Origin: Bacteroidota bacterium
Lineage (GTDB): Bacteria; Bacteroidota; Bacteroidia; Chitinophagales; UBA2359
Reading direction: 5' to 3'
Length of the DNA stretch: 42,630 bases
NCBI GenBank assembly: GCA_020628015.1
Contig: JAHDFT010000003.1
Coordinates: 1-42,630, forward strand
This document shows positions 24,197-38,900 of this stretch, one piece after another (positions within the stretch are counted from its first letter, which is position 1; each line of letters begins with the position of its first letter). The notes beneath the pieces are model-generated. The model ran no database searches and had not been told where the DNA came from. It saw only the letters and a program-made list of their open reading frames with translations. A program made the position numbers and the translations under genes.

Positions 24197-25576
24197 TCAA
24201 GCCTGTTTTAACCAAGGATGCTTCGTCAATAACTGCTGTGCTTTATCTGCATTAATCATATTCAAATAAGACCAATATCCTTTCCCATAAGCCTTCGCAT
24301 TTTTACCCATTCTTCTCGACATTTCAAACTCACCATAACGATCATAATGATGCAAAAAACTACGGAAACGCTTTAAATCTCGACGAGACAAATTCGGTTT
24401 TTCATTAATCACCACACCAGTCAAACTCTGACGGTGATGTGGTCGCAATACCACCAATTTATCAGGATGTAGGATAAAATTTTCCTTATAAATAATAGTT
24501 TTCGCACATTTGATTAATCGACTAACTGCTTGATCTTTATTAGAATGAGAAAAGGCAAGATCATCCGCATAACGAGTATAATTAAAACCTAATTTATCTG
24601 CTAATCCTTTCATGCGTTTATCTAGGCGATAACAAATAATATTGGAAATAGCTGGTGAAGTGCAGGCTCCTTGGGGTAAATAACGCTCCCCTAGTGCGAC
24701 ATAAAAGTTTTTATCTCCTAACTGGGCATTGATTCGAGCTGCGTCTGTGCAAATCAAAGCAAAAATACTGGCTATGCCTTCATTATAGCCCAACATCTGA
24801 AACAATCCTTTGACTCGCTTAAATTTGACCGAAGGGAAAAAGTCTTGCAAATCCATTTTTACTAAAACACCTGCCCCTTGATGCGCTTTAGCGTTATCTG
24901 CTACAGAGCAATTGGGACGGAATGCTTTTGCAGAGTCGGTAACAGGAATTTTTTCTAGTATATTTTTTAGCAACCAAGATTGGGCTTTACGTAATAAAGG
25001 TTTGGGTGCAGCGATGGTACGAAATCCGCCTTTTCGCTTAGGAATTTGAAAACGGCTATAGTGGTCTGTTTGCGCTGTAACTCGATGATAAGACAGCCAT
25101 GATACTTGTTTTGTAGTTATACCAACTGCTTCAGCAAATTCGGTAGCATTGTGAATGGGGGGTAAATCCCATTTTTTCAACTTTTCAAGATTAGCTCCTT
25201 CAAACTTCAAACCAGCCGAAACCTGATCTCCTAGATAAGGCGGCGTTTCTGATCGACGTTTTTCCTCCTTTGCTTGTCGTTCTTTTTTCTCTGCTGCTTT
25301 TCGGATTTTCCGTTCTGCTCGTTCCTTTTTGACCCGCTCAATTCGCTTTCGACGAATCTCCTTGAGCATTGCCTCAATATTTCCTAAAGCATGAATTTGT
25401 CGATCTTTATTCCGAATCTTATTGTCTAGGCGAATAACTTCCTTGGTTCCCTCCAATAGTTTATCAGCATCTTCTGGAGCCATCTCCAAAAAACCAAGTT
25501 GAATCATATCTTGTAGCTCAAAATATTTGCGCCCATATTTGTTAATTATTTTGCGCCATTCTTTGACCTCATTCAT
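24197..25576 (-). CDS. Retron-type reverse transcriptase with a ~150-aa charged coiled-coil N-terminal extension
   Basis: RT motifs: FRTIAAPKPLLRKAQSWLL (motif 1), DLQDFFPSV (motif 3/A), LPQGACTSPAISN (motif 4/B), YTRYADDLAFS (YADD, motif 5/C). Retron-diagnostic motifs are also present: NAKAH (NAxxH) and RQSLTGVVIN (the VTG-type motif after the thumb). Confidence 0.9.
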   Translation of the reverse strand: MNEVKEWRKIINKYGRKYFELQDMIQLGFLEMAPEDADKLLEGTKEVIRLDNKIRNKDRQIHALGNIEAMLKEIRRKRIERVKKERAERKIRKAAEKKERQAKEEKRRSETPPYLGDQVSAGLKFEGANLEKLKKWDLPPIHNATEFAEAVGITTKQVSWLSYHRVTAQTDHYSRFQIPKRKGGFRTIAAPKPLLRKAQSWLLKNILEKIPVTDSAKAFRPNCSVADNAKAHQGAGVLVKMDLQDFFPSVKFKRVKGLFQMLGYNEGIASIFALICTDAARINAQLGDKNFYVALGERYLPQGACTSPAISNIICYRLDKRMKGLADKLGFNYTRYADDLAFSHSNKDQAVSRLIKCAKTIIYKENFILHPDKLVVLRPHHRQSLTGVVINEKPNLSRRDLKRFRSFLHHYDRYGEFEMSRRMGKNAKAYGKGYWSYLNMINADKAQQLLTKHPWLKQA

Positions 25577-25646: not shown

Positions 25647-27281
25647 TCAACTTCCTATATGTAATACGCCAGCTACAATATGACTACAAGGCCCTTGACG
25701 TAATTTATTGCTTCGGAAAAAACCACAAGTACATTCCGCTTTAATCACTTTCCCATCTGCATCTAGGGAAATAACAGGTTTAAATACTTTCTTTCCTGTT
25801 ACAGATAGGGTATATTTAGTCAATTCTTTATCTTGCTCTTTTCCTAGTAAATTGACTTTTCCTTCTTTAAATAATTTAGTTGCATATTTAATGCGTTCAT
25901 CTGATTCAGAAGACTTGATTTTGATTTTCTGCTCTAGTAATTTTCGCCAGCGATATTGGCCAGTAATAGGGTCAAACATTGCCTGTCCATGCTTACATAA
26001 TTCTTGTAAAGCTTTAGTAGCGACTTTTTGCTCTAAGTCCAACCATTCTGCAAAGTCTGCTGGTTTACCAGTCAATTTTTTGATTAACGCTTGTTCTACC
26101 TTTTTTACAGTAGCTTTATCAACTTTTCCTATAGCTCCTAGCAAATCAAAACTGGCTTTTTTTGCCCAATCATTAGCCGTCCAGCCTGATAAACCCAAGT
26201 CAAAACGATGGCCATCAATGGAAACTGACCAATAAGAAGGCATTCCTGTTCCTAAAAGTTTGATATGTACTTTTTGGGCATAAGGCAATACTTCTCGCCA
26301 AACCATCAAGCGACGACGACCCCAAATTTTTATGGAACCTTCTTTTTCTCCATTGTATACATAATCATTTTCTTCAACTACGATATTCCAAGGGGCAATA
26401 GTAATACTTGGCTTTTTCCCTTTCTCCAATTTGAATTCCAAATAACGTGGACTCACTCTCTCTTTTTGTCGCTCCAAAACGCCTAGCACTTCTGCCAAAG
26501 TATCTGCACTCAATGTTACCAAAGTACCAGCCATACTTGCTGCCGATTGAACTTGTAGAAAACCATTGACCCAACTATCTGGTAAATCAATTTTCTTTTC
26601 TACTCGTGAACCAGCCGTTGTTGAGACTTCTACTTGCTCGAAGGCTACTTTTAGCCAAGCAGGGCGATAGCTGCGAACTCGGTAAATCTCATCTGCCAAA
26701 GCTGCACTAAAGTCAATATTCGTTGTCCCATATTTTACATCATCAAAAATATCCAGATTTTCTGTAGGCACACTCACCCGTCCATAAACCGACTCATCCA
26801 AAGAAAATGCTTCAAAAATCACACTATCTGGATGCACACTAATCACAGGATCAAACAGCCATCGACGAGCATCTCGTGTTTGCCAAATCCAATTTCGGTA
26901 AGCTCGTTTCGCTTTATTGAAATCTTTTCTTAGTGGAGCCAATTCTGCATTGAGTTCTTTTTTGCGATCAATCCAAGCTTGCTTTTCCTTAGTTAATTTG
27001 GCTTGTTTTTCTAGTACAACTTGCTTTTCCTCGGATAATTCCTTCAAATATTGTGTTTTCACCCATTCTTGATAAGCTGTATGATCTTTCTGTGGCGGTC
27101 GCCAATCACCAATCACCACTTGTCTCAATACCAGCATCAATTTGGCGTAAGCTAGGCTATTTCGCACCATAGCATGTAGCGATACAGGCGGTCGTGAAAG
27201 CTCCGCCGAAAGGGAAAAATGCATTCCCTTATCATCTGCTTTAGCCGTACTTGGCTGATGGTAAGCTTGTGTTAATTGCAT
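25647..27281 (-). CDS. Winged-helix / SWIM zinc-finger protein (retron accessory gene)
   Basis: C-terminal SWIM signature CTCGFFRSNKLRQGPCSH (CxCx(n)CxH). It is preceded by a helical wHTH-like segment (VEQALIKKLTGKPADFAEWL...). There is a coiled-coil segment near the N-terminus. It sits 70 nt upstream of the RT on the same strand. Confidence 0.75.
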   Translation of the reverse strand: MQLTQAYHQPSTAKADDKGMHFSLSAELSRPPVSLHAMVRNSLAYAKLMLVLRQVVIGDWRPPQKDHTAYQEWVKTQYLKELSEEKQVVLEKQAKLTKEKQAWIDRKKELNAELAPLRKDFNKAKRAYRNWIWQTRDARRWLFDPVISVHPDSVIFEAFSLDESVYGRVSVPTENLDIFDDVKYGTTNIDFSAALADEIYRVRSYRPAWLKVAFEQVEVSTTAGSRVEKKIDLPDSWVNGFLQVQSAASMAGTLVTLSADTLAEVLGVLERQKERVSPRYLEFKLEKGKKPSITIAPWNIVVEENDYVYNGEKEGSIKIWGRRRLMVWREVLPYAQKVHIKLLGTGMPSYWSVSIDGHRFDLGLSGWTANDWAKKASFDLLGAIGKVDKATVKKVEQALIKKLTGKPADFAEWLDLEQKVATKALQELCKHGQAMFDPITGQYRWRKLLEQKIKIKSSESDERIKYATKLFKEGKVNLLGKEQDKELTKYTLSVTGKKVFKPVISLDADGKVIKAECTCGFFRSNKLRQGPCSHIVAGVLHIGS

Positions 27282-27344: not shown

Positions 27345-30182
27345 TTATTTCAATACAAAGTCTCCTAATTGTTCTTCCCCAGCAATTGCCATTTTGGTGA
27401 GTTGTAAAATTGCCCATTCTGCATCCTTCTTATTCTTCCCTTTAGCCATTCTCAGCAAGGCTTTAGGATCAACAGCTAGGGTATTTTCCAAGCGTTCTTT
27501 CACCAATTCCTTCGTTTTTCGTCCTTTATTTTTAGTTCGCAAAACGGCTTCATCAAATCGCTTCATTCGTTTTTGAGCATCTGGATAACGCACCAATAAT
27601 TCCGCAACATATTTTTGAATAAAAGGATCTGTTTGCTCCGATAAATAGCTGATGAGCTGCTCTGGATTTAAATTCGCTTCTTGTTCTTTGGTCAATTGTA
27701 AACCAGCTTCTCGAACCGCACGACGAGGGCTATCACACATCGCCAAAACACGCTCCATCATTTGTCCTTCATATTCTAAGGGTCGCTTAAAAAATGAATG
27801 ACCAAGTTTAAAGGCATCTGGGACATCAGTTTCCATTAATCGAAGTGCGAAAGGCAGGTCAAAATCCTGTTGCTTGGCTCGTTCGATACTCCATTTTCGA
27901 ATGCTATTTAATGCATGAGCGCAACCCTGTAATAAGGCTTCTGATTCAGGTGCAAAAAGGGCTTCATTGGCTTCGACCCACTCAAATAAGCGTTTTTCTA
28001 ATGGGCTGTGGGTAATGTCTAAAATCGCTATATCACTAGTATTATTAAGTGTTTCATTAGCGGCTGGATAGTTTAAGGTACGCTTATATAGTGTATCTTT
28101 TTCTTCCACCATCAATTGATTCAAAATCTTCACCCAACAATTTGCCCCATTTGCTCCTTTCAAATAATCAACAAAAGGTTTTTCTAGCATCCCCCATTGT
28201 CGATTGTGTGTAGTAGAGACCATTTTTACTACTGTATCTACATTTAAATTATGGAACAACTTATCAAAAACAGGTGCTAGTTTATAAATATAATCTGGAC
28301 GTGAATTCACTAATCGTTGTAGGGTATCAAAGTAAATATTTTGGTAATGCTTGTCAAAATGCTCCATCACTACCTGATGAAAGCGGTTGATTTTTTTAGC
28401 ATAAAACTGATTGACAACAGCTCGCACTATTTGACGGAAAGAATTCTCTTTTAATCGACCATTCAATAGAAATTCTAAGGTATTTTTATGTACCCATTCA
28501 TCTTCATCTACTAAACATTGAGCTACCTGATAAGCAACAAAATTCGTCTGCTTATTATTTCTTTGTTTAATCTCTTCAATAATTGCATCCCGATCTTCTA
28601 GGTTTTTCAATCGAGGCAGCCAGCGGTAAAAATTGCGCTGGGCTACGTTGATCAAGGCTTTCTTGGCTGGTTCATAAAATAAAGGATGTCCATGTTTCAT
28701 TAAATCGAAGGGACGGCCATAATTAATTGCCCAAGTAATGAAATTACTATGATACTTAATCAATACTTTGGCTCCATATTCTGATTGGATTGTATTTTTA
28801 TAAGGCTTATAAGCCATACTGCGCCAGTATAATCTATTGGCAAGATTCCGAATGGTATTTTTGGGGTCATTTTGTAAAGACAATAAATACCAACCAAAAT
28901 CCACGATTGAAGGAGAATCATTAATGACAAAACGCTCAACATCTCTAAGTCTGAGTTTTTGGATTGGATATTTACTCGCTAAAGCAGGATAAAATACTTT
29001 TTTCTGTTCTGCGGAAGCATGATCTAAAGCTCCCAACCAACTTTTGACATCTTTTTGTTTGCTCTTTTCAATATTACTTTTTACTAAATTCGTTAATCGC
29101 CAATCATTTTGGGCTAAAATACCCACCAAATTTTGCTTAATCAACATAGAAGGAATCATACTGGCTTTTCCTAAAACTAAATTCAAACCTACACCTACTC
29201 GATTTTTCGGCTTTTTATTATCTAATTGAGGGAAAATGAGTGTACTCAGATAGGTGACGAACATGGACATATCAAAATTGCGAAGGTTCACTTGATTTTT
29301 ACTTGGTTGTTCTTCTCCTGTAAAAAATGAGGTAATTCGTCCTAGAAAAGAATTTGGAGCTTCTCCTTGTTTTTGAGGAGTGGAAATCGCCTTTTGAATG
29401 ACTTTTTTAGTGTTCGCAGGAGCGTAATAATAGGTTTTTGCCCAAGTTTCCATGTTTTTTTCTTCTCCTTTTTGAAGCAAGTTCCAAGATGCTTTTGCAG
29501 CAAAGCTTTGTAACCAAGGGCTATTACTATTGAAAAAAGGCAATAAAAGATGTGGAGCTACAGTAGGTACAGCTTTTCGATTACGCATTAATACTTTGGC
29601 AATAAACTCATAAATTTCTGGTGCTAAAACCTTACCATGCCAGAGTTTCAACAAATCATCTACATGGCGATCCCAAATATCACTTGCTTTGTCCTCTTTT
29701 CGATAAATATTGGGTATTTCTTTATTAGCAGCATATATCCCTCGCCCATTTCGACGCTGTTTAACTCGTTTAGAATTTCCTTGAATAATGTTCAGTAAAA
29801 CCCATTGATGAGCATGATCTACTGCTTGTTTTTGTAACTGAAATAAGGCTAGACAAATTTCAACATATATGGCTTCATTTTCTTTGGATAATTTTCGCAA
29901 ATAACGGGCAGCTCGTCGCTTCATATAAGCCAATGTTGCAGCTGTAGGATATAGATTTTTACGATCTTCAACTAAAGGAGCCTGATCAATACGAGCAATA
30001 ATGATGGCTAATGCTCTAGGCATAGGTTCACTTTGCCCTTCAAGTTTTTTGTATAATTGTTTTATAAGTTTCCAATGCCCTTTAACGAATGGAGCTTCCT
30101 GAAGATAGGTATTAAGTTTCTGCTGTTCTGTCTTATCTTTTGGTGGGAAATGATCTATGAGGGAGGTATTTATTGGTAGCAT
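27345..30182 (-). CDS. Large all-alpha ARM/HEAT-like repeat protein (retron accessory gene)
   Basis: About 945 aa, helix-rich, with no catalytic motif seen. It is the first ORF after the structured ncRNA. I place the start at ATG 30182 (MLPINTSL...) because the TTG-initiated extension to 30251 overlaps the a2 arm and msd flank of the ncRNA. Confidence 0.65.
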   Translation of the reverse strand: MLPINTSLIDHFPPKDKTEQQKLNTYLQEAPFVKGHWKLIKQLYKKLEGQSEPMPRALAIIIARIDQAPLVEDRKNLYPTAATLAYMKRRAARYLRKLSKENEAIYVEICLALFQLQKQAVDHAHQWVLLNIIQGNSKRVKQRRNGRGIYAANKEIPNIYRKEDKASDIWDRHVDDLLKLWHGKVLAPEIYEFIAKVLMRNRKAVPTVAPHLLLPFFNSNSPWLQSFAAKASWNLLQKGEEKNMETWAKTYYYAPANTKKVIQKAISTPQKQGEAPNSFLGRITSFFTGEEQPSKNQVNLRNFDMSMFVTYLSTLIFPQLDNKKPKNRVGVGLNLVLGKASMIPSMLIKQNLVGILAQNDWRLTNLVKSNIEKSKQKDVKSWLGALDHASAEQKKVFYPALASKYPIQKLRLRDVERFVINDSPSIVDFGWYLLSLQNDPKNTIRNLANRLYWRSMAYKPYKNTIQSEYGAKVLIKYHSNFITWAINYGRPFDLMKHGHPLFYEPAKKALINVAQRNFYRWLPRLKNLEDRDAIIEEIKQRNNKQTNFVAYQVAQCLVDEDEWVHKNTLEFLLNGRLKENSFRQIVRAVVNQFYAKKINRFHQVVMEHFDKHYQNIYFDTLQRLVNSRPDYIYKLAPVFDKLFHNLNVDTVVKMVSTTHNRQWGMLEKPFVDYLKGANGANCWVKILNQLMVEEKDTLYKRTLNYPAANETLNNTSDIAILDITHSPLEKRLFEWVEANEALFAPESEALLQGCAHALNSIRKWSIERAKQQDFDLPFALRLMETDVPDAFKLGHSFFKRPLEYEGQMMERVLAMCDSPRRAVREAGLQLTKEQEANLNPEQLISYLSEQTDPFIQKYVAELLVRYPDAQKRMKRFDEAVLRTKNKGRKTKELVKERLENTLAVDPKALLRMAKGKNKKDAEWAILQLTKMAIAGEEQLGDFVLK

Positions 30183-30204: not shown

Positions 30205-30455
30205 AAAAAAAAATAGAGCTTTGCTACTAACAAGCTTAGGACCAGGGCCAATCACTGTAAGCGGCGGTGCCCCCTATGGATACCTTTAAATCCGAATTGT
30301 GAGCAACGCTAACCCAGCGCACTACGGATTTAAAGGTATCCATAGGGGGCTGAAGCCGCTGAATGACATTGGTGTCTGGTGAAGTAATGGTGGCTTGACA
30401 ACGACCACGGCGAAACACCGCAGTATAATTGCTAACAAAGCTCTTTATTTTTAAT
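30205..30455 (-). ncRNA. Candidate retron msr-msd non-coding RNA
   Basis: Read on the minus strand. a1 is GAGCUUUGUUA (plus 30433-30443) and pairs over 11 bp, with one G-U, to a2 UAGCAAAGCUC (plus 30216-30226). a1 is immediately followed by G in a UUAGC context (complement of 30432), as at the branching G of Ec86. Short GC-rich stems follow (30381-30420). Next is a perfect 26-bp hairpin (30269-30294 / 30325-30350, 30-nt loop), extended by gcggc/gccgc (30261-30265 / 30355-30359). A U9 run follows a2. The region is conspicuously GC-rich in an AT-rich genome and lies upstream of a retron-type RT operon. Confidence 0.75.
30261..30359 (-). repeat. Long inverted repeat (predicted msd stem-loop)
   Basis: gccccctatggatacctttaaatccg (30269-30294) is the exact reverse complement of cggatttaaaggtatccatagggggc (30325-30350). 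An outer 5-bp extension is separated by a small internal loop. Confidence 0.9.
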
Positions 30456-30520
30456 ACAAAAAATATTGAAATAGAAGTAACTAGTATCACAGGGTAAGTT
30501 AGGATCTCGTTGGACTCACT

Positions 30521-30814: not shown

Positions 30815-31378
30815 TTAGGATATTTTTTTTAGTAATTCATCATCTGGATACCCCAACATCCTTATATTTCCGTCTGCTTCTACATGAATTTCGACATAAT
30901 TGGCATTCTCCATATCCGCTGCCTTATATCGTTCGGTTAAAAATAATACTTGTTGATTTTCTGAACCTCGCCATTGCAAATTGGTGTTTCGCAAGGCTTC
31001 TACATAGCGACCAGCGATTAGAATATCACAATAATCTAATACGTCTGTTTGTTTTCGCTCTTTTAATTCTGTCAACTCATAACCTGTGTACATCATAATC
31101 GTCAAACCTCGTGCCTTAATTTGTTGACAAAGGGCTAAAGTTTCTTCATATTGATCAAAGGGTTCTCCTCCTAATATGGTAACGCCTTCTATTTCACTTT
31201 CCCAAGCCATAATATCATGCATCAATCGCTCAACGGTCATGATCTGATTCTCCTTGAAGCTCCATGTTTCCTTATTCCAACAGCCTTTACACTTAATAGA
31301 ACAGCCTTGAGTCCAGATCACAAATCGAGTGCCTGGTCCATAAATATGGCTGGTTGGTTCTATGTGGTAAGTATTCAT
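30815..31378 (-). CDS. NrdG-like radical-SAM glycyl-radical-enzyme activase (orphan)
   Basis: GPGTRFVIWTQGCSIKCKGCWNKETW (CX3CX2C in the NrdG/PflA context), ILGGEPF, YTGYELTEL, DILIAGRYV...LQWRGSENQ. These are collinear with E. coli NrdG as I remember it. ATG at 31378 preferred over the TTG at 31426. Confidence 0.8.
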   Translation of the reverse strand: MNTYHIEPTSHIYGPGTRFVIWTQGCSIKCKGCWNKETWSFKENQIMTVERLMHDIMAWESEIEGVTILGGEPFDQYEETLALCQQIKARGLTIMMYTGYELTELKERKQTDVLDYCDILIAGRYVEALRNTNLQWRGSENQQVLFLTERYKAADMENANYVEIHVEADGNIRMLGYPDDELLKKIS

Positions 31379-31472
31379 TATATATAAAATATTAAAATAG
31401 GAATAAAAGCGACTTTTGGTGAGCAAAATGGAACTTTACTCAATGGTGAATCAGTAGGCATTCTCTCATTCA

Positions 31473-31961
31473 TTATCCTTTTACAAGAACTAATTGCGTT
31501 CTACCATTTTTGGTTTTCCTTTGTATTTTGTATCCCATTGCTCTAGCTCTTTCCTCAATTGCCTCTTGTTGCTTTTTCAAGTAGGCTTGCCGTTGTGTTT
31601 GCAAGCGAATGGCTTCTCTCATGGTTGCTTCCTTGATCTTAATTTCTTCTGGATCAGTAGGCTCTCCACCACCTTCATCTTCTTCAGCGGCTGCCAACTT
31701 TCGGTCAACGATGCCGTTATAGGCTTCTTCGAGATATTTTAAGAATGTACGAGCTTTGGCTTTGACCTCCGTATCATAGTGAAATTGAAATCGCCCCAAT
31801 TCGTCCTTGACAAAACAAGCTTTGTGGTGAAATCGCAATTGTGGAATTTCGTAACGGACTCCTTCCTCAATAGGTACTAGATCGTATCCGCATTGTTTTA
31901 CTGCTTCTAGCAAGGTATTTAAGTCCAAAAATGGCGTTAAAGATTTGACAACTACACTCAT
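31473..31961 (-). CDS. DUF1257 (Ycf35-like) family protein with a charged insert
   Basis: N-terminus MSVVVKSLTPFLDLNTLLEAVKQCGYDL and C-terminus MGYKIQRKTKNGRTQLVLVK match the DUF1257 pattern (M..f..i.t...d...L..AL..lGy... / kGY.v.r....dG.i.L.l). It is adjacent to a DUF2997 gene, as is typical. Start moved to ATG 31961. Confidence 0.6.
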   Translation of the reverse strand: MSVVVKSLTPFLDLNTLLEAVKQCGYDLVPIEEGVRYEIPQLRFHHKACFVKDELGRFQFHYDTEVKAKARTFLKYLEEAYNGIVDRKLAAAEEDEGGGEPTDPEEIKIKEATMREAIRLQTQRQAYLKKQQEAIEERARAMGYKIQRKTKNGRTQLVLVKG

Positions 31962-32054
31962 TTTTGTGTGGTTTTGAATGTTAAAAAAGTATCGCATTAG
32001 TCCTAAAATAGATATTTCATGATTTATTTTAAGACTAATACTAAAATAATGGTA

Positions 32055-32264
32055 TTATTTTTTTGCTTTTACTTGCTCTTTGGTAACAGATTTTCTTCCC
32101 TGATAAAAATCATCCGTCTTTTTTACGGAGGCATTTCCCAAATCTGCAATATCCTTCATGAGATTATTGAGTTCATCCATGCACATTTCACCTGTCATAC
32201 CTTCAGTCTTCGCAAGGATTTTCCCATTTTCATCTATATCAATGATGATTTTTTCTTCTTTCAT
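32055..32264 (-). CDS. DUF2997 family small protein
   Basis: 69 aa. IIIDIDENGKILAKTEGMTGEMCMDELNNLMKDIADLG...KTDDFYQ fits the DUF2997 pattern (I.i..dG.v...v.G..G..C.....l...lG.v....t.eyy). Confidence 0.6.
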   Translation of the reverse strand: MKEEKIIIDIDENGKILAKTEGMTGEMCMDELNNLMKDIADLGNASVKKTDDFYQGRKSVTKEQVKAKK

Positions 32265-32347
32265 AATATAGGAGTACTTTAATTTAAAAAAATGATTATG
32301 ACACCAAATTCCCTAGTGAGTTTGGTATAAATCTGAAACTGCTAAAA

Positions 32348-34732
32348 TTAAGCTGTCACAGGTTCTTCTTTAGTGGCACAAAGTATCGCTCCTAGTTTTT
32401 GAGCGTCTTCTTTTGCCCAGTCGTATTCTGACCAACTATTGATGGCTAGATAACGTTTGTTTCCCCAAGTGAATAGATGTCCTCTACGAGGAAGTGATTC
32501 ATTGGGGTAGTCAGCAGAAAAAAGTGGTAAATCAACAATATTGACAACTATTGTTGGTTCCTCATGTTCTGCTGAATTGTCTTTTTGTTTGAGTGCTGTA
32601 TTGGAAGCATAGCGATTTTTGAGAATCGAAGAAAGTGAAGATTTCTTTCTGCCTCCTGATTTCGTACTAACCGTTTGTAATTTAGATTGTTGACTTCTAA
32701 TTCGATTGGTTTGGGAAGTGAATGACTTCCCCATTTCTTTTTCAATGAAAGCCAATCGTTTAGAAATATTTCGCAACTGGTCAGAGAAAACATTGATTTC
32801 TTGGCTATTGCCTTGTAAATATTCCTCATAAGGTGCATCAATATCCTTCATTTCCTTCACCAACAAATCTACACCTCCTGCATCTCGTCCATCTCTACTT
32901 TGCCGCTCTGCTACTCTTTGTAGAGCAACCATTAGATCTTCCCAACCACCTTCTTTCCATTCTTGTTGCTCCATAAATTCTTTCCGCATTCGATTTCGCT
33001 CACTTTCGAGATAACTCCCCTTTGCGTCCATGTCCATATTATCATACATGTTCCCCCACTGACGAGTCAAATTTTGTTTACGTTGCTCTAGCTTTGATAC
33101 CTCTTTCTTGTATTTTTGTTGATTTTCTTCAAACTCTATTTTTGCTTCCTTCACTTTTATATCACTTAACACACTAAAATTCTCCTCATTGAACACGTTA
33201 ATGGCTCGATCTAACTGTTGAATACAACGGTTCACTTCTGCGGTTTGTAATACCGCAATATCCTTTTTCTTCAACTCCTTAATCGTGCTATCTACTTCGA
33301 TAAGTCGCTTTTTGGCTTTTGTCCAACCGCCTAGAATTTTAGATTTTAGGGTATCAGGAATTTCTTCTACTGCCTTGTATAATTCATCTCTTTTTTGTGC
33401 CAATTCATCAACAGTTTTGGAGAATCGACTTTGTGCAGCAATCCATTTTTTGTAGAGTGGTGCGTCTGTTGCCCCTTGTGGTAATTGTTGTGGTTCTAAC
33501 TTGATTTCATATTTCACTTCCAAAGCATACAAGTCCTCTTCTGGCATAAATTCATCCCATACTGGATTTTTCAAAGCACCTAATTCTACTTTTTTAATCG
33601 CAGGCTCTGCCTCAGCTTCTTGGCTAATCTCAATAGATTTGGACAAATCATCTACTAGTAACAAAGGAGCTTCGACAGCTTGAAATTGCTTCTTTGCATG
33701 AAAATGATACTTAGATTTATTTGTCAAATCATTAGCATAAGCTAATAAATCCTTGCATTGACCTTCGTTTAATTTCAATAAATAGACTAGATTTTCCTGT
33801 TTATAAGCATCCATATCCAAAATGGGGAGCCAATATATTTCATTATTATCAAGAATAACAAAATTCGCCAATGTGCTTTCAATAGCCTCCAAATGATTCC
33901 CTTTTTCTGCTAATTGCTTGACCAAATCATTGGAACGCTGTTGCAGCGTACATAAAATCCTTGCTTCTTTGAGTTTGTCTACAGGTATTTTTAAGGGATT
34001 CGTTTGATTATTATCCATACGATGTAAAATCATTTTCACATCTGTAGCTCCTGCTAATTTTCTAGCTAAAAAGCCATTAATACCATCCCAACCAAAATAA
34101 GGTGTAGGTAATCCAATCTTATTGAAAGGTGATCCCTCTACTTGTTTGGGCATTTCCAAATGACTTTCTTGAAGAATCTCAAAACCTGCTTTTTCCCAAA
34201 AAGTTTGACAGAAAAAGGCAAACAAATTAGTCAATTGCGATGCAGAGAGTGCGGTCAACAAGCCTTTTTGCTTCACGACTGCATTATCTAAGAGATGGTG
34301 GTTATAGATAAAGCCAGACTGTTTTTCCTTTTTGGGATCAATCAATACAAAAGTACCAACAACTGAAGCACCACATCGGATCAAAGCTTGACCAGCTAGT
34401 GCCTTAAGATCATTGAGGGAAACGACATCTTGATCGTCAGGGCGTTGGTCTATTAATAAGTAAAGGCGTACATTTCGCTCGTTTATCGCTCTTAAACAGG
34501 CTTCCTCAATTGCTGTTCCTGCTTGAAAAAAGGGGGTTTGAAGACAAATGACTTCCTCTGCTTGGTCAATCGCATAGGCAATCGTTGCTTCAATATCTGT
34601 TAAAGCAAAGTGCGTCCATTCTTTGAATTCTGGCTGCGGTTTGACCGTCTGTTTTTCCCAAAAATGGGTTAGCAACTTCTGCCGATTATCTTGAACGAAT
34701 GTTTTACTTATTGGTACAATAGATGATGACAT
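32348..34732 (-). CDS. Hypothetical 794-aa protein: N-terminal PLD-like (apparently inactivated) module plus a long coiled-coil and a C-terminal domain
   Basis: Residues ~45-160 (AIDQAEEVICLQTPFF...NVRLYLLIDQRP...VGTFVLIDPKK...SGFIYN) and ~265-300 (ARILC...LANFVILDNNEIYW) resemble the two halves of a PLD/Nuc fold. However, H and K of HxKxxxxD are replaced (V.T / L.N). The central ~250 aa are K/E/Q-rich coiled-coil. Confidence 0.4.
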   Translation of the reverse strand: MSSSIVPISKTFVQDNRQKLLTHFWEKQTVKPQPEFKEWTHFALTDIEATIAYAIDQAEEVICLQTPFFQAGTAIEEACLRAINERNVRLYLLIDQRPDDQDVVSLNDLKALAGQALIRCGASVVGTFVLIDPKKEKQSGFIYNHHLLDNAVVKQKGLLTALSASQLTNLFAFFCQTFWEKAGFEILQESHLEMPKQVEGSPFNKIGLPTPYFGWDGINGFLARKLAGATDVKMILHRMDNNQTNPLKIPVDKLKEARILCTLQQRSNDLVKQLAEKGNHLEAIESTLANFVILDNNEIYWLPILDMDAYKQENLVYLLKLNEGQCKDLLAYANDLTNKSKYHFHAKKQFQAVEAPLLLVDDLSKSIEISQEAEAEPAIKKVELGALKNPVWDEFMPEEDLYALEVKYEIKLEPQQLPQGATDAPLYKKWIAAQSRFSKTVDELAQKRDELYKAVEEIPDTLKSKILGGWTKAKKRLIEVDSTIKELKKKDIAVLQTAEVNRCIQQLDRAINVFNEENFSVLSDIKVKEAKIEFEENQQKYKKEVSKLEQRKQNLTRQWGNMYDNMDMDAKGSYLESERNRMRKEFMEQQEWKEGGWEDLMVALQRVAERQSRDGRDAGGVDLLVKEMKDIDAPYEEYLQGNSQEINVFSDQLRNISKRLAFIEKEMGKSFTSQTNRIRSQQSKLQTVSTKSGGRKKSSLSSILKNRYASNTALKQKDNSAEHEEPTIVVNIVDLPLFSADYPNESLPRRGHLFTWGNKRYLAINSWSEYDWAKEDAQKLGAILCATKEEPVTA

Positions 34733-34788
34733 TGTTTTGTCTTTTCTTTAAAAAAGTAATAATGGTAAAATAACTTAATACATAGCAT

Positions 34789-35880
34789 TTATACCGCCAA
34801 ATCATAAGGTGCCGCTAGGTGCCAAAATGCTTCTGATTTGAGGCTATCTTCGTCCGCTTTGGTTCTTTCCAAAATATCTTCTACAGTCAAAGTATCTAGT
34901 TCATGATGTTTGAAGGCAGCATTTTGGTTAATTTGTAGCACCATTTGATCTAAACGCTTAGGACGGATGTAGTTTTTTTGTACTTCCTCCATCACTAACC
35001 AATCTCGCCATTGGTTAGCATCTGTCTCATTAGCAGGCACAACGGCAATGTCTTTCAAAGTCACCTCATCAAATCTACCATAAGGAGACTCTGGTACATT
35101 AAGCGTCAGATGTGGAATAAGGAAGCGTTTTTTAGTTGTTGGGGGTAATTCCTCACTAAATCCAACCGCTATACATCCTGCGGCTTCATGCCACTCTAAA
35201 TTACCTGCGCCTGCAACTGCCTGAAGCACTTCTACTTGTGATTGGCTTAATTTTGTTTCATGATGTAAATCAATCGGCATTCTTGTACTACTCAAACGGA
35301 GTTCTCCATCTAACACGCAAATTGACTCATCGGTTGTAGAGGAATACCAAGTCCATTCTAAATTTGCAGAATCATTTCCTCTGAAGTAGCCCTCCTCATT
35401 GACTCCTAGCCCTAAAACTTGAATATCAACTGTTTGTCCCCCACTTTTTAGCGAATAGGTTTGATTGATAAAATTTTGTAAGGGCAATTGATGCAGGGAG
35501 CCACCTGTTTCTTTAGCTTCTTCTTCGGCAACTTCTGGTTTTACTCGCTCAAAATGTACAAAATGTTCACCAATCAACGGATCATTCGAGATGACCCATA
35601 TTTTGTATAAGCCTTCTTCTTTTTGCCAGAATCTTCCGCTTTCTAGTACCCCTTTTCCTGTTTCGGTAATGCTCCACCCTTCTCCATCTACTGCTAACAA
35701 GTCCATGCTGAATAGATAGCGAGCAATTTGGCGAGATAATGGATCATTTTGAGTATCTATTTCGCCTTTATCTAATGCTTCTAAAAATTCCTGGATATCA
35801 GTACGCTCCGTAGCTACTTTTAAGCTGCCATATACCTGATAAACTGGTATTTCTACTGTTCGCTTTAGTGTTAATGCCAT
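34789..35880 (-). CDS. Hypothetical 363-aa protein (possible N-terminal winged-helix)
   Basis: Long ORF, codirectional, with 38-56 nt gaps to its neighbours. The first ~90 aa have a wHTH-like pattern. No catalytic motif recognised. Confidence 0.5.
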   Translation of the reverse strand: MALTLKRTVEIPVYQVYGSLKVATERTDIQEFLEALDKGEIDTQNDPLSRQIARYLFSMDLLAVDGEGWSITETGKGVLESGRFWQKEEGLYKIWVISNDPLIGEHFVHFERVKPEVAEEEAKETGGSLHQLPLQNFINQTYSLKSGGQTVDIQVLGLGVNEEGYFRGNDSANLEWTWYSSTTDESICVLDGELRLSSTRMPIDLHHETKLSQSQVEVLQAVAGAGNLEWHEAAGCIAVGFSEELPPTTKKRFLIPHLTLNVPESPYGRFDEVTLKDIAVVPANETDANQWRDWLVMEEVQKNYIRPKRLDQMVLQINQNAAFKHHELDTLTVEDILERTKADEDSLKSEAFWHLAAPYDLAV

Positions 35881-35918
35881 TGATTGAATCCTTATTTATT
35901 ATTTAGTAATGGACTATA

Positions 35919-38900
35919 TTAATGTTGTAAATATTCGACCAATTCCCGCCATTCCTCAGAAATCGTTTGTGTGCCGAAGGTATCTTGTTTTCCAACAATC
36001 ACTAGTTGATATTTAGCACGAGATAAAGCCAAATTCAAGCGATTAGGGCTATCTGGAAAGGCGGTTTGTGGATTGCCTAAACAGAGGAAAACAACATCTG
36101 CCTCTTGTCCTTGAAAAGTTTCGACCGTTCCTACGTGAATATCGACATTTCCTTTTTGGTAAAGCAGCTTCGTTGTCTTGTCTTCACAAAGGTCTTGCAC
36201 CATTAAACACAGTTTTCGTTTTTGATTGGGTTGGAAACATAGACAGGCTACTTTATAATTCCCTTCTTGTTGATTTGCCCAATCGCAGAAATGTTGTAAT
36301 TCCTCCTTCAAAACAGGAATTTCTTGTTCTGTCGTATTGAGCCAAGTTACTCTGGATGCATGCCGATCAAAGTCCCAATCTCGCTCATTACTTAGTGCAG
36401 GTACATCTTTCAAGGTATTTTCATAGAAGACTTTGCTTACCAATTGGGTAATATCTGGATGCATTCGATGTTGTACTTCTAGTCTGCTATGTCTTAACCC
36501 TTCAAGGATTTCATCAGCAAATCCTTTGGTTAATGTGCTGGTATATTTACTGCGTAATCGACCAATTACCCCATTGTGAATGCTTTCTAATAGGGATGGT
36601 AATGCCATACGACTAATGTGTATCACTTTACCAGCAATATTTAAGGACTGTGGGAATAATCGGTGTAATCGTCTCTTTAGTTGTCTTGCTCTTTGATTGC
36701 GATCTGCTCTACTTGTAAATTGTAGTTCAAATTGCCTAATAATCGCTTGACTCAATATTCTTGACCAATTTTCTCGATGGAGAATGGTTTCGATATACTG
36801 AGCAATTTTTAGTGATTCATTGATAATTGTTCCATCTGTACTTACAATTCCTGTTGCAAAATCTGGACTTGCTTGTCGCATAAAGGCAAGGTGACGGAAT
36901 CCATGTTTATAGTATTGCCAGTTTTTTCCTAAAAAGATAAAATATTCTGGTAAAAGATCAAGTACTTCATGTGTCAAAGACTCATCTAACAAAATGAAAT
37001 CAGCAATATGAGCTGCTAATCTATTTTCTTGTAAAGCTTCTGGGGAAAAGATTTGCATCCATCCTTTTGCTTTTAACTTTTCTCTTGAAATGGTTATCCA
37101 TTTTTTGCCTACTAGTTCAAATTCATTATAATCGTCGTCACTTTCTTCCATTCTTACCCCTATTTCCTTGACCATTGCATCTAAAACTTCGGCAGGTAAT
37201 GGTAGAATAAAGCGATTGTGAAAGTCTTGCTTTACTCCTTCTTGACCAGCAATGCTTGTGTTGCTATATTTCAACAAAGTTTCTAGGTAAAAACAGGCTT
37301 TTTGAAGGGCATCAGGAATCCCTTTCATCTTAGAGAAACGCAAATTACCAATTAATCGCTCTACAGAATGCCTATTGGTATAAGGAGTTAATTGCATGGT
37401 GTCTCCTGCGAGTATCCATTTTTTAGCAAAAACGGCTGGAAGGAGGAAGTCTTGGAAGGTAATGTCGTTGCTTTCATCAACGATTAGGTAGTCAAAGTAA
37501 GGACTTAATGGCTGATGGGTATCAGTTGTCAACCACTGACGCATCATTGGATGTTCCCACATTTCTTTAACAGGTGCGACTACCAAATTCGCTGCCTCCA
37601 AAATTAACTGCTCTGGTCGGCTTGTTTCTTCATCAGTATAGGCTTCCCAATGAAAAACACGCAAATCATTATCAACTCGATCTAACTCCCCTACTCGAAG
37701 TGGGAAAGTTTCTTTTTGAAAATCAGGATGTTGTATAATTTGTCGTAGTAAATGATCGGCTCCTTGTGGTGTTGCACTACATAATAGGATTCGTGGATAT
37801 TGTTTGGATGCTTTGGCTTTTTGTAGAATTTGCCAGATTAACTCTAGTAAAACGGTCGTTTTTCCAGATCCAGGCGCACCTTCCAAAAAGGCAAAGTCAG
37901 GAGTTGCCAATGCTCTTTTGACAAAATCTCTTTGTGCCTTACAACCTTTTCGTTTCCCATTTTTTAGTAATAACCACTTACCAGTCTGTATGTCTGCCTC
38001 CTCAAATGCTTCCCATTGAACCTCCTGAATGGGTTCAAAGATTTTCATTAATGGATAAAGGTGAGCGTGAGGTTGTGCTAGTAATCGAGCCATGACCTCT
38101 AATTGATGCTCTGGTGGACGGCTATCTGCATGAATAAAAATCAATTCGGTTGCGGGTAGGATATATTTTGGTGCAACGACTTCATCTAGAAACATAAAAG
38201 ACTTTTCAGCCAATACAATTCTTCTTTCTGCTTCATTTCGCAATACAATATTGTAGACTTTCCCATATTCATCCATGACAGAATCAATCGTCTCATCAAA
38301 GAAGTAGGCAAAGTCATCATCTGATTTGTAGGATTCATTAACCAAATCTAATTCAATCCAGAATTGATCTTTGGCTTCCTGTTCATGATCTTCTACTTTA
38401 TGCAACCGCAATTCCATTCCATTGACGGTATGGAAAAGGGCATCTTCTCGATAGCTATCTTTGTAGATGGCAAAGGTTAAAGAATTGGGATCAATCACCT
38501 CCTCATAATCAAAATTGAGGATATTTTCTAGGCGAATATCCATAGCCAATTCCTCGATAGTTGCTAGATGTTCTGGCAGTTTGGGTATGGTATGGCTACA
38601 AACAACTGCTTCTGTCAAATCGAAATTGACAATTTGTAGATCGGGATATTGATAGAGGTCAATTTGTTCAATAATCCGGAAGCCTGTATCTTCTCCGTTA
38701 ATAAGCAATTGGGTGGAGGGCTGAATAAATGCATCTAGGAATAATTGTTTATCCTTAAATTCAAAGTCTAGTTGCTCTCCATAGGTAGTTACTGTATTGA
38801 CCTCCCCTGTTTCTACCCATGCCAATTCCAATTCAAAAGCTTCGAATCCCCAATGAACACGCCCTAGAAAAGCTTCGGTTAATGGCAAACGAATGAAGAT

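What the first reader, a model, noticed from the sequence alone, without database searches (positions are those of the whole stretch)
30205..30455. GC-rich structured element with the hallmarks of a retron msr-msd RNA
- **Composition and position.** This is the only strongly GC-rich, palindrome-dense stretch in the window. It lies on the same strand as, and upstream of, an operon ending in a retron-type RT.
- **a1/a2 stem.** On the minus strand, an 11-bp a1/a2 stem (30433-30443 with 30216-30226) closes a 228-nt element.
- **Branch-G context.** a1 abuts a G in the context UUAGC. This is the same arrangement as the 2'-OH priming guanosine of well-studied retrons such as Ec86 (CCCUUAGC).
- **msd hairpin.** The 3' half carries a perfect 26-bp hairpin, extended to about 31 bp, as expected for an msd template.
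- **What is unusual.** Two large genes (about 4.6 kb) separate this RNA from the RT, rather than the RNA sitting immediately next to it.
Basis: partly seen in the sequence, partly recalled or inferred. Interest (0 to 1): 0.85.

Follow-up and report, generated by a model that had tools for sequence, protein, structure and literature searches.

The report
Template RNA of a type XIII retron
This structured stretch is very probably the primer-template RNA gene (msr-msd) of a type XIII retron, a known kind of bacterial reverse-transcriptase system, sitting at the head of its three-gene operon instead of next to the reverse transcriptase.

Summary

**The element.** Window 30215-30444 (minus strand) folds far better than shuffles (z = -9.4). 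A 12-bp a1/a2 stem ends right before an unpaired G (30432) in UUAGC. A short msr hairpin follows, then a long msd hairpin with a perfect 26-bp core.

**The operon.** Three genes lie downstream on the same strand:
- a HEAT/ARM-like protein,
- a SWIM protein (PADLOC SWIM_XIII, 1e-166),
- a retron RT (RT_XIII, 7e-151).

**Relatives.** I found 60 homologous elements in 42 loci from Bacteroidota, Armatimonadota and Chloroflexia. All lie on the gene strand. Where an ARM gene was recognised, they lie upstream of it.

**Covariation.** 81% of cells are paired, against 62% after shuffling and 36-45% after sliding. 58 of 72 pairs show compensatory changes, including the base pairs next to the priming G.

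- The msDNA should be about 150-160 nt, as in Mx162, not 80-110 nt.
- The region is not the only GC-rich stretch in the window.
- The RNA's position 4.6 kb from the RT is the rule in this clade.

**Verdict.** A new member of a known kind.

**Side findings.** Eleven related loci carry 2-4 tandem units with diversified msd stems. The SWIM protein model has a PCNA-like clamp fold.

The parts
30433..30444 (-). a1, the 5' arm of the closing stem (AGAGCUUUGUUA)
   Evidence: Pairs in register with 30215-30226. In 56 copies the four base pairs next to the G covary: AT/GC, TA/CG, TG/TA/CG, GC/AT/TA. In helix 1, 11 of 13 pairs show double changes.
30432..30432 (-). Putative priming (branch) guanosine in UUAGC, unpaired, immediately 3' of a1
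   Evidence: G13 and C14 are invariant in 50 aligned copies. The context matches the TAGC/UUA-G rule stated in PMC6868368 and PMC12819146. The 2'-OH priming itself is inferred.
30405..30423 (-). msr hairpin (CUGCGGUG-UUU-CGCCGUGG), probable RT recognition element
   Evidence: Helix 2 is 98% paired. Five of its 8 pairs have compensatory changes and it holds conserved G-U pairs.
30381..30404 (-). Rest of msr, a weakly supported 3-bp hairpin and linker
   Evidence: Helix 3 is 80% paired, with AU/GC exchange at one pair.
30241..30380 (-). msd long interrupted hairpin: conserved base, variable middle (perfect 26 bp at 30269-30294 / 30325-30350) and conserved apical element (30295-30324)
   Evidence: (helices 4-11). 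As DNA, 30228-30381 (+) folds at -46.8 kcal/mol, z = -10.
30227..30227 (-). Unpaired G facing the priming G, at or next to the first templated position
   Evidence: Invariant G218 in A3. Its position is conserved in all 56 copies examined. The start of cDNA here is inferred from the canonical retron mechanism.
30215..30226 (-). a2, the 3' arm of the closing stem (UAGCAAAGCUCU)
30205..30213 (-). U9 run directly after a2, a possible end of an independent ncRNA transcript
   Evidence: Read from the sequence. Relatives L018, L022 and L031 have a separate GC hairpin plus T-run after the RNA. Its function is inferred; the consensus terminator scan found none.
27345..30182 (-). HEAT/ARM-like accessory protein (945 aa from ATG 30182)
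   Evidence: Weak partial PADLOC hits to WGR_XIII (1.6e-22) and HEAT-ARM_XIII (2.6e-21). Homology to relatives starts at residues 22-49 of the maximal ORF, so the CDS does not overlap the RNA. No Pfam or PDB sequence match.
25647..27281 (-). SWIM protein, the type XIII primary associated protein
   Evidence: PADLOC SWIM_XIII 9.9e-167. Pfam SWIM 3e-4. CxCx12CxH and the D-x7-D-x4-E-x32-D-x37-E motif are read from the sequence. The AF2 model resembles PCNA and beta-clamp.
24197..25576 (-). Retron reverse transcriptase
   Evidence: PADLOC RT_XIII 6.7e-151. Pfam RVT_1 4e-22. Best solved relative is the Ec86 RT, 4.7e-38. YADD, NAKAH (NAXXH) and LTG (the VTG position) are read from the sequence.

Best explanation
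The element is the msr-msd gene of a type XIII retron.

- **Transcription.** It is transcribed from the minus strand, either as the 5' end of the ARM-SWIM-RT operon transcript or as its own short transcript.
- **Folding.** The RNA folds so that the a1/a2 stem (30444-30433 with 30226-30215) places the unpaired G30432 next to the template start at about 30227-30228.
- **Recognition and priming.** The RT encoded 4.6 kb downstream binds the conserved msr hairpin (30423-30405). It uses the 2'-OH of G30432 as primer.
- **Synthesis.** The RT copies the msd region back towards about 30380. The product would be a branched RNA-DNA molecule whose DNA part is about 150-160 nt and folds into a long hairpin.
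- **Downstream role.** By analogy with other retrons, this msDNA-RT complex is then held or read by the ARM and SWIM proteins.

**Shown:** the structure, its conservation and covariation, the strand, the synteny and the identity of the three proteins.

**Inferred:** transcription, priming at G30432, the size of the product, and the interaction with the accessory proteins.
For: **Structure.**
- Thermodynamic outlier: z = -9.4.
- The 26-bp perfect repeat is the longest in the window.

**Proteins.**
- The RT matches RT_XIII at 6.7e-151 and SWIM matches SWIM_XIII at 9.9e-167.
- The first gene has partial hits to HEAT-ARM_XIII and WGR_XIII.
- The closest solved relatives of the RT are retron RTs.

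**Homologous elements.**
- nhmmer found the element on the gene strand, 3-4.5 kb upstream of SWIM homologues.
- A covariance model found 60 elements in 42 loci. All are on the gene strand except the palindromic echo of one element cut by a contig end.
- Nine of these elements were not used to build the model.

**Covariation.**
- 81.4% of cells are paired, against 62.1% shuffled (0 of 500 shuffles reach it) and 36-45% slid.
- The covariation score is 0.513, against 0.196 shuffled and 0.13-0.21 slid.
- 58 of 72 pairs carry double changes.
- RNAalifold recovers a1/a2, the msr hairpin and the msd stem unaided.

**Priming site.** a1 ends exactly at an invariant, unpaired G followed by C, and the adjacent pairs covary: UUA/UAG, CCG/CGG, CUG/CAG, CCA/UGG.

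**Strand.** Conserved G-U pairs would be A-C mismatches on the other strand, which fixes the RNA strand.

**Dimensions.** The element is 230 nt from a1 to a2, close to the 241-nt Mx162 primary transcript. Roughly 52 nt separate the G from the msd stem (PMC6868368).

**No room elsewhere.** Only 70 nt separate SWIM and RT, so there is no space for an RNA next to the RT. The model finds no second copy in the window.
Against: - There are no expression data and no msDNA data.
- No Rfam family matches. There is nothing at gathering score, and only sub-threshold miRNA-like hairpin hits at E up to 10.
- The published type XIII ncRNA models could not be run, and no direct comparison with Mx162 or Sa163 RNA was possible.
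- Folding energy is nearly the same on both strands.
- No sigma-70-type promoter was found on the minus strand. Only an imperfect Bacteroidota-type -7 box (TATTTTTTG, 30465-30457) lies upstream.
- SWIM+RT loci without an ARM gene have no detectable copy. Close relatives of this RT and SWIM therefore either manage with an RNA I cannot find, or without one.
Confidence: 0.88

Rival explanations
1. The RNA is the RT's template, but the product is not a classical, constitutively made, branched msDNA. It might be cleaved from the RNA as in Ec83, or made only on infection as reported for type VI retrons.
For: The retron literature documents both variations: RNA-less msDNA of Eco4/Ec83 in PMC6868368, and type VI retrons that do not accumulate msDNA in bioRxiv 10.1101/2025.10.22.683967 (abstract). 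Nothing in the sequence tells how much product is made or how it is processed.
Against: The validated type XIII members (Mx162, Mx65, Sa163, Ne144) make abundant branched msDNA (PMC6868368 and PMC7736814). The a1/G/a2 geometry here is the canonical priming geometry.
Confidence: 0.08
2. A cis-acting structured 5' leader (attenuator or protein-binding operator) that regulates the ARM-SWIM-RT operon and is never reverse transcribed.
For: It lies 32 nt upstream of the ARM start codon and is followed by a U9 run. Some relatives have a terminator-like hairpin after it.
Against: - A leader does not need an a1/a2 stem ending at an invariant G in UAGC with a facing unpaired G.
- A leader does not explain a 26-30 bp stem whose sequence is free to vary while pairing is kept.
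- Tandem duplication to 2-4 units is hard to reconcile with a leader.
- The retron RT would be left without any template RNA in the locus.
Confidence: 0.03
3. A selfish or incidental palindromic repeat (REP- or MITE-like), or the bidirectional terminator of the upstream radical-SAM gene.
For: It is palindrome-rich and intergenic, and it folds on both strands.
Against: - There is one copy in the 42.6-kb window.
- Its position and strand relative to ARM-SWIM-RT are fixed across three phyla.
- Strand-specific G-U pairs and strong covariation point to a functional RNA.
- It lies 370 nt from the upstream gene's end.
Confidence: 0.01

Closest known systems
Type XIII retrons of Mestre et al. 2020 (RT clade 10; validated members Retron-Mxa1/Mx162, Mxa2/Mx65, Sau1/Sa163, Nex2/Ne144)
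   Same: - RT of the RT_XIII family with an N-terminal extension.
- SWIM protein with CxCx12CxH and the DEDE-type motif.
- A preceding HEAT/ARM-like protein.
- An ncRNA of about 230-240 nt with a long msd hairpin, predicting an msDNA of about 150-160 nt.
   Different: - The host is Bacteroidota, not Myxococcota.
- The priming context is UAGC, against CAGC or GAGC reported for Mx162, Sa163 and Mx65.
- The RNA gene is at the head of the operon, 4.6 kb from the RT. The held text of the classification paper speaks of a contiguous (msr-msd)-RT cassette; its Figure 5 is not held, so I cannot say how it draws type XIII.
- Sequence or structure homology to the Mx162 RNA was not tested.
Retron-Eco1 (Ec86), the best-studied retron
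   Same: An a1/a2 stem ending at a G in UUAGC, msr hairpins, an msd hairpin, and the RT as the closest solved relative (4.7e-38).
   Different: Ec86 is type II-A3 with an NDT effector. Its msd is 86 nt and its RNA lies immediately upstream of the RT. Here the msd is roughly twice as long, the effectors are unrelated and the RNA is distant.
Retron-Sen2 (St85) / Retron-Vmi1 layout: msr-msd, effector gene, then RT
   Same: The template RNA is at the 5' end of the operon, with accessory gene(s) between it and the RT (abstract of PMC11701397).
   Different: There one gene of about 1 kb intervenes. Here two genes of 2.8 and 1.6 kb intervene. The RT clade and the effectors are different.
Engineered 'multitron' ncRNA arrays (PMC10370050)
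   Same: Relatives of this locus carry 2-4 tandem msr-msd units that share the msr scaffold and differ in the msd. This is the design built artificially for multiplexed editing.
   Different: Those arrays are synthetic and based on Eco1. The arrays seen here are natural. The window itself has a single unit. Production of several msDNAs is untested.

Membership tests
Retron msr-msd ncRNA (generic definition, PMC6868368 and PMC7736814) | Inverted repeats a1/a2 at the two ends that pair and enclose msr and msd | tested here: met
   12 bp in the window. The stem is conserved with compensatory changes in 56 copies. In helix 1, 11 of 13 pairs have double changes.
Retron msr-msd ncRNA (generic definition, PMC6868368 and PMC7736814) | Conserved priming G at or immediately 3' of the a1 arm, usually in TAGC | tested here: met
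   G30432 lies in UUAGC. G and C are invariant in 50 copies and the G is unpaired at the top of the stem. The rule is quoted.
Retron msr-msd ncRNA (generic definition, PMC6868368 and PMC7736814) | One to three short msr stem-loops, then a long msd hairpin (10-50 bp) | tested here: met
   An 8-bp hairpin that is 98% paired, and an interrupted msd stem with a 26-bp perfect core.
Retron msr-msd ncRNA (generic definition, PMC6868368 and PMC7736814) | Linked to, and on the same strand as, a retron-type RT | tested here: met
   RT_XIII at 6.7e-151 on the same strand, 4.6 kb downstream. The same linkage is seen in relatives. It is not contiguous with the RT.
Retron msr-msd ncRNA (generic definition, PMC6868368 and PMC7736814) | Production of msDNA joined to the G by a 2'-5' bond | not testable with these tools
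   This needs expression and nucleic-acid analysis.
Curated RNA families (Rfam 15) | A match to any curated model at its gathering score | tested here: not met
   There are no matches at gathering score in the window. At E up to 10 there are only sub-threshold miRNA-like hairpin hits. This RNA family is therefore not represented in Rfam.
Type XIII retron system (Mestre et al. 2020) | RT of clade 10 | tested here: met
   PADLOC RT_XIII at 6.7e-151 and 501 bits. The next model scores 299 bits.
Type XIII retron system (Mestre et al. 2020) | Associated cluster 114_1 protein: DEDE motif, winged helix, C-terminal SWIM CxCx12CxH | tested here: met
   SWIM_XIII at 9.9e-167. C517-x-C519-x12-C532-x-H534 and D144/D152/E157/D190/E228 are invariant or nearly so. 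The winged helix was not examined separately.
Type XIII retron system (Mestre et al. 2020) | Preceding HEAT/ARM-repeat (or WGR plus HEAT/ARM) accessory protein | tested here: inconclusive
   Only partial hits covering the N-terminal 180-230 residues (1.6e-22 and 2.6e-21), and no Pfam hit. Clear homologues occupy the same position in relatives, 1e-150 to 1e-21. The repeat architecture itself was not modelled.
Type XIII retron system (Mestre et al. 2020) | ncRNA matching one of the published type XIII consensus structures (Firmicutes, Mx162, Mx65, Ne144) | not testable with these tools
   The models and supplementary files are not held.

The most novel reading that the evidence does not exclude
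In this branch of type XIII retrons the template-RNA gene would be a free-standing, duplicable module rather than part of an (msr-msd)-RT cassette.

- It sits at the head of the operon. In several relatives it has its own -7 box and terminator.
- In 11 of 42 loci it is expanded to 2-4 tandem units. These share the msr scaffold (77% identity) but carry different, internally complementary msd stems (35% identity).
- One RT would then make a repertoire of msDNA hairpins, a natural 'multitron'.
- The readers would be a SWIM protein with a PCNA-like clamp fold plus HEAT/ARM, WGR, PARP and BRCT modules. That is a DNA-end or damage-sensing domain set.

The single-copy window locus would be the minimal form of this system.
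Probability: 0.3. Interest if true: 0.7.

Novelty: new member of a known kind. Interest (0 to 1): 0.42.

Why it matters
Type XIII includes Mx162, the first retron ever found, and it still has no known function or mechanism.

This work provides three things for a non-myxobacterial branch:
- a well-supported RNA family, with an alignment, a structure and a covariance model;
- the exact predicted priming G and template start;
- a defined four-part locus.

Together these make the system directly testable. One can look for an msDNA of about 150-160 nt, mutate G30432, and express the RNA in trans.

The side observations give concrete hypotheses about what the msDNA is for. They are natural tandem template arrays in relatives, a clamp-like fold of the SWIM protein, and WGR/PARP/BRCT partners. 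All are unproven.

For the window itself the result is largely confirmatory: a retron RT has its expected RNA.

Tried and rejected
- **Rfam.** Both the gathering-score scan and the permissive scan gave nothing useful.
- **Promoter and terminator scan.** The sigma-70 scan found no minus-strand site, and Bacteroidota promoters are not covered by that tool. A hand search for TAnnTTTG found good boxes upstream of the first or only unit in L002, L003, L007, L018, L022 and L030. In L004 the only box lies upstream of the second unit. In the window there is only an imperfect one.
- **First a1/a2 test.** Free duplex folding of 60-75-nt flanks was confounded by base composition and by neighbouring tandem units; the cognate partner ranked best in only 27 of 52 cases. 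I replaced it with an in-register count anchored on the two Gs.
- **RNA in SWIM+RT loci without ARM.** I looked in L005, L009 and L014 with nhmmer, the covariance model, an inverted-repeat search and a sliding fold. I found no candidate.
- **Literature.**
  - No text statement on where the type XIII ncRNA lies.
  - Supplements of PMC7736814 are not held.
  - The census and environmental-retron papers do not mention type XIII.
  - I had recalled Ec78 as a precedent for an RNA separated from its RT. The paper lists the operon as ncRNA, RT, PtuA, PtuB, so I dropped it.
  - A 2026 preprint that mentions 'ncRNA array' (10.64898/2026.09.22.753630) could not be opened.
- **Coding reading.** I rejected the overlapping ORFs, the 84-aa ORF 30236-30490 and the TTG-extended ARM ORF. 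Homology of the ARM protein begins at the ATG at 30182, and the conservation pattern is that of paired RNA.

Full report
**1. What is in the sequence**

Read on the minus strand, 30444-30215 has the following layout.
- A 12-nt arm, AGAGCUUUGUUA (30444-30433).
- An unpaired G (30432) followed by CA.
- After 8 nt, the hairpin CUGCGGUG-UUU-CGCCGUGG (30423-30405).
- A 24-nt linker.
- A long interrupted hairpin (30380-30241). Its middle is a perfect 26-bp inverted repeat, 30269-30294 / 30325-30350.
- A short single-stranded stretch ending in UUA-G (G30227).
- The arm UAGCAAAGCUCU (30226-30215), which pairs in register with the first arm.
- Nine U residues.

The supporting numbers are these.
- The 251-nt region folds at -110.2 kcal/mol. 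Dinucleotide shuffles give -63.5 +/- 4.95, so z = -9.4.
- The 26-bp repeat is the longest perfect inverted repeat in the 42.6-kb window; the next is 16 bp.
- GC content is 45% (core 53%) against 37% for the window. That is high but not unique, since a region near 8000 is equal.
- The plus strand folds almost as well, at -107.8 kcal/mol. Energy alone therefore does not give the strand.

**2. The neighbours**

Three genes lie downstream on the minus strand.
- **ARM-like protein.** The CDS is 27345-30182, 945 aa. The ORF list extends it to a TTG at 30251, but homology to relatives starts at the ATG at 30182. It has partial PADLOC hits to WGR_XIII (1.6e-22) and HEAT-ARM_XIII (2.6e-21).
- **SWIM protein.** The CDS is 25647-27281, 544 aa. 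It matches SWIM_XIII at 9.9e-167. The CxCx12CxH finger and a D-x7-D-x4-E-x32-D-x37-E motif are read from the sequence.
- **Reverse transcriptase.** The CDS is 24197-25576, 459 aa.
  - It matches RT_XIII at 6.7e-151 and Pfam RVT_1.
  - Its best solved relative is the Ec86 RT at 4.7e-38.
  - YADD, NAKAH and LTG are present.

This is the gene set that Mestre et al. 2020 (PMC7736814) define as retron type XIII. Its validated members are Mx162, Mx65, Sa163 and Ne144. Only 70 nt separate SWIM and RT, so a 230-nt RNA cannot sit next to the RT.

**3. Relatives**

- The SWIM protein has thousands of homologues; the closest is 62% identical and comes from Bacteroidota metagenomes.
- Eighty genomic loci anchored on SWIM homologues were fetched.
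- nhmmer with the window element found it on the gene strand, 3-4.5 kb upstream of the SWIM gene. The loci come from Bacteroidota, Armatimonadota and Chloroflexia.
- A profile search combined with ORF homology shows the order RNA(s)-ARM-SWIM-RT.
- A covariance model built from 50 copies finds 60 elements in 42 loci.
  - All are on the gene strand, apart from the palindromic echo of one element cut by a contig end.
  - Nine of them were not used to build the model.
  - The window has exactly one, 30215-30444 (-), at 176 bits.

The RNA's position 4.6 kb from the RT is therefore the rule of this clade, not a peculiarity of this locus.

**4. Conservation and covariation**

The family has a conserved scaffold:
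- GUUAGCA;
- the msr hairpin;
- UCACCGG ... UCAGCG at the base of the msd stem;
- an apical CGCUGAGU..GCG..GCCCAC;
- CCUACAGUGA;
- GGUCC;
- UUAGUAGC.

The middle of the msd stem varies freely but stays complementary.

*Consensus folds.* RNAalifold on a first alignment gave 32 pairs, 28 with compensatory changes. On an alignment trimmed to 12 nt outside the two Gs, it recovers a1/a2, the msr hairpin and the whole msd stem without constraints.

*Pair counts on that structure.*

| Measure | Observed | Shuffled | Slid by 1-3 columns |
|---|---|---|---|
| Cells paired | 81.4% | 62.1% (0 of 500 reach the observed value) | 36-45% |
| Covariation score | 0.513 | 0.196 | 0.13-0.21 |

In addition, 58 of 72 pairs have double changes.

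*Caveat.* The structure was derived from these sequences, which favours it over the slid controls. The margin is nevertheless large. The a1/a2 result below was obtained independently, with anchors rather than folding.

**5. The priming site**

In 56 copies the 5' arm ends exactly before a G followed by C. The 3' arm begins exactly after a G.

The triplets next to these Gs change together: UUA with UAG or UAA, CCG with CGG, CUG with CAG, CCA with UGG, and UCA with UGA. Position by position the pair types are as follows.

| Position from the G | Pair types (counts) |
|---|---|
| 1 | AT 44, GC 9 |
| 2 | TA 37, CG 15 |
| 3 | TG 25, TA 15, CG 15 |
| 4 | GC 38, AT 7, TA 4 |

Cognate arms pair at 9.6 of 12 positions, against 6.9 for non-cognate arms from other loci.

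This matches the geometry described for retrons. The stem ends immediately 5' of a priming G, most often in TAGC (PMC6868368), downstream of a UUA motif (PMC12819146).

Conserved G-U pairs occur at columns 10/263, 49/65, 50/64, 54/60 and 111/228. They would be A-C mismatches on the other strand. Together with synteny, this fixes the minus strand as the RNA strand.

**6. How it most likely works**

The steps below follow the established retron mechanism and are inferred for this locus.
- The RNA is transcribed from the minus strand.
- a1/a2 forms.
- The RT binds the msr hairpin.
- The 2'-OH of G30432 primes cDNA synthesis at about 30227-30228.
- The RT copies the msd back to about 30380.
- RNase H removes most of the template.

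The DNA would be about 150-160 nt. The two Gs are separated by 204 nt, of which about 52 are msr. As DNA it folds into a long hairpin at -46.8 kcal/mol, z = -10.

The RT can plausibly act in trans or on a distant part of the same transcript. Engineered retrons tolerate inverted and trans arrangements (PMC10849725; PMC10370050).

Whether the RNA is a separate transcript is open.
- In the window a U9 run follows a2.
- L018, L022 and L031 have a GC hairpin plus T-run after the RNA.
- TAnnTTTG boxes precede the first or only unit in several Bacteroidota loci.
- The window has only the imperfect TATTTTTTG.

**7. Comparison with what is known**

It works like, and by the protein criteria is a member of, type XIII retrons.

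- The RNA meets all generic msr-msd criteria that sequence can test.
- Membership in the published type XIII RNA classes (Firmicutes, Mx162, Mx65, Ne144) could not be tested, because the models and supplements are not held.
- Rfam has no matching family.
- The held text of the classification paper describes a contiguous (msr-msd)-RT cassette. Its Figure 5 is not held, so I cannot tell whether the operon-head position has already been drawn.
- A layout with the RNA first and an accessory gene before the RT is known from Sen2 and Vmi1.

I therefore rate the window element as a new member of a known kind.

**8. Things seen on the way**

- **(a) Tandem units.** Eleven of 42 loci carry 2-4 tandem units. 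Within a locus the scaffold is 77% identical and the variable msd arms 35%. I found no description of natural arrays; only engineered ones turned up. One possibly relevant preprint could not be read.
- **(b) Motifs in the variable arms.** The arms are enriched in GGTA(C/G), CCGGTAG and AGTAGT-type words, with z of 9-16 against shuffles.
- **(c) Fold of the SWIM protein.**
  - An AlphaFold model (pLDDT 75, pTM 0.70) matches PCNA, beta-clamp and 9-1-1 structures.
  - The E-value is about 1e-8, and the TM-score by target is 0.60-0.67 over about 245 columns.
  - All 50 top hits are of this kind.
  - It has no sequence match in the PDB.
- **(d) DNA-sensing partners.**
  - In L004 the gene after SWIM is a WGR-PARP protein, and no RT lies within 8 kb.
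  - L002 has a WGR protein between SWIM and RT.
  - Armatimonadota SWIM proteins carry BRCT domains.
- **(e) Loci without the RNA.** SWIM+RT loci without ARM have no detectable RNA.
- **(f) Upstream genes.** Upstream of the retron in the window lie a radical-SAM gene with a weak pVip hit and an SF1 helicase with MkoA-like hits. This may be a defence island.

**9. Verdict**

- My confidence that this is the retron's primer-template RNA is about 0.88. What remains unproven is expression and the product.
- Interest is moderate. The result is largely expected for a retron RT. It does supply a testable model for the least understood and oldest retron type, and it points to natural template arrays and a clamp-like partner in relatives.

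Noticed in passing
L003 3667-4955; L004 3369-4508; L050 2979-4090; L056 3512-4316; also L002, L007, L021, L039, L044, L059, L074: Related loci carry 2-4 tandem msr-msd units upstream of the ARM gene. Units in one locus share the scaffold (mean 77% identity) but have different, internally complementary msd stems (35%). I found no description of natural arrays in the searchable literature, only engineered 'multitrons'.
   Followed up: partly
window 25647-27281 (-): The AlphaFold model of the SWIM_XIII protein (pLDDT 75, pTM 0.70) matches PCNA, beta-clamp and 9-1-1 structures: E about 1e-8, TM-score by target 0.60-0.67, about 245 columns, all 50 top hits. This DNA-clamp-like core is not mentioned in the 2020 description, which lists a DEDE motif, a winged helix and SWIM. 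The aligned residues were not mapped.
   Followed up: partly
L004 10048-11328; L002 10286-11245; Armatimonadota SWIM homologues P0074-P0120: DNA-end or damage-sensing domains accompany this system. A WGR-PARP gene follows SWIM in L004, which has four RNA units but no RT within 8 kb. A WGR protein lies between SWIM and RT in L002. BRCT domains are fused to SWIM in Armatimonadota.
   Followed up: partly
L005, L006, L009, L011-L015, L017, L019, L020, L023-L028 (Microscillaceae and Cytophagales): These loci have SWIM, with or without an RT, but no ARM homologue. Neither nhmmer nor the covariance model finds an RNA there. Sliding folds of 6-13.5 kb in three of them show no comparable structure. Where their template RNA is, if any, remains unknown.
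   Followed up: partly
A3 columns 117-151 and 184-220 (window 30263-30357): The 'variable' msd arms are enriched in short words such as GGTAC, GGTAG, CCGGTAG and AGTAGT (present in 12-19 of 100 arms against 2-4 expected; z of 9-16). The apical loop CGCUGAGU..GCCCAC is conserved. These may be protein-binding or modification sites on the RNA or on the msDNA.
   Followed up: no
L018 about 4440-4500; L022 about 4680-4740; L031 about 5050-5110; window 30205-30213 and 30457-30465: In some relatives the RNA is flanked by a Bacteroidota-type -7 box (TATATTTG) and a GC hairpin plus T-run. This suggests an independent transcription unit. The window has only an imperfect box (TATTTTTTG) and a U9 run right after a2.
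   Followed up: partly
window 30815-39275 (-): A same-strand gene cluster lies upstream of the retron. It holds a radical-SAM/Fer4_12 protein (weak pVip hit, 7.5e-7), three proteins without family matches (174, 794 and 363 aa) and a 1118-aa SF1 helicase with MkoA-like hits (2.6e-48, C-terminal part). It may be a second defence system in an island.
   Followed up: partly
L075 1139-1406; L077 2065-2310: In two Abditibacterium loci the covariance model finds the RNA 1.6-2.4 kb upstream of the recognised ARM homology, rather than directly upstream. The intervening sequence was not examined.
   Followed up: no
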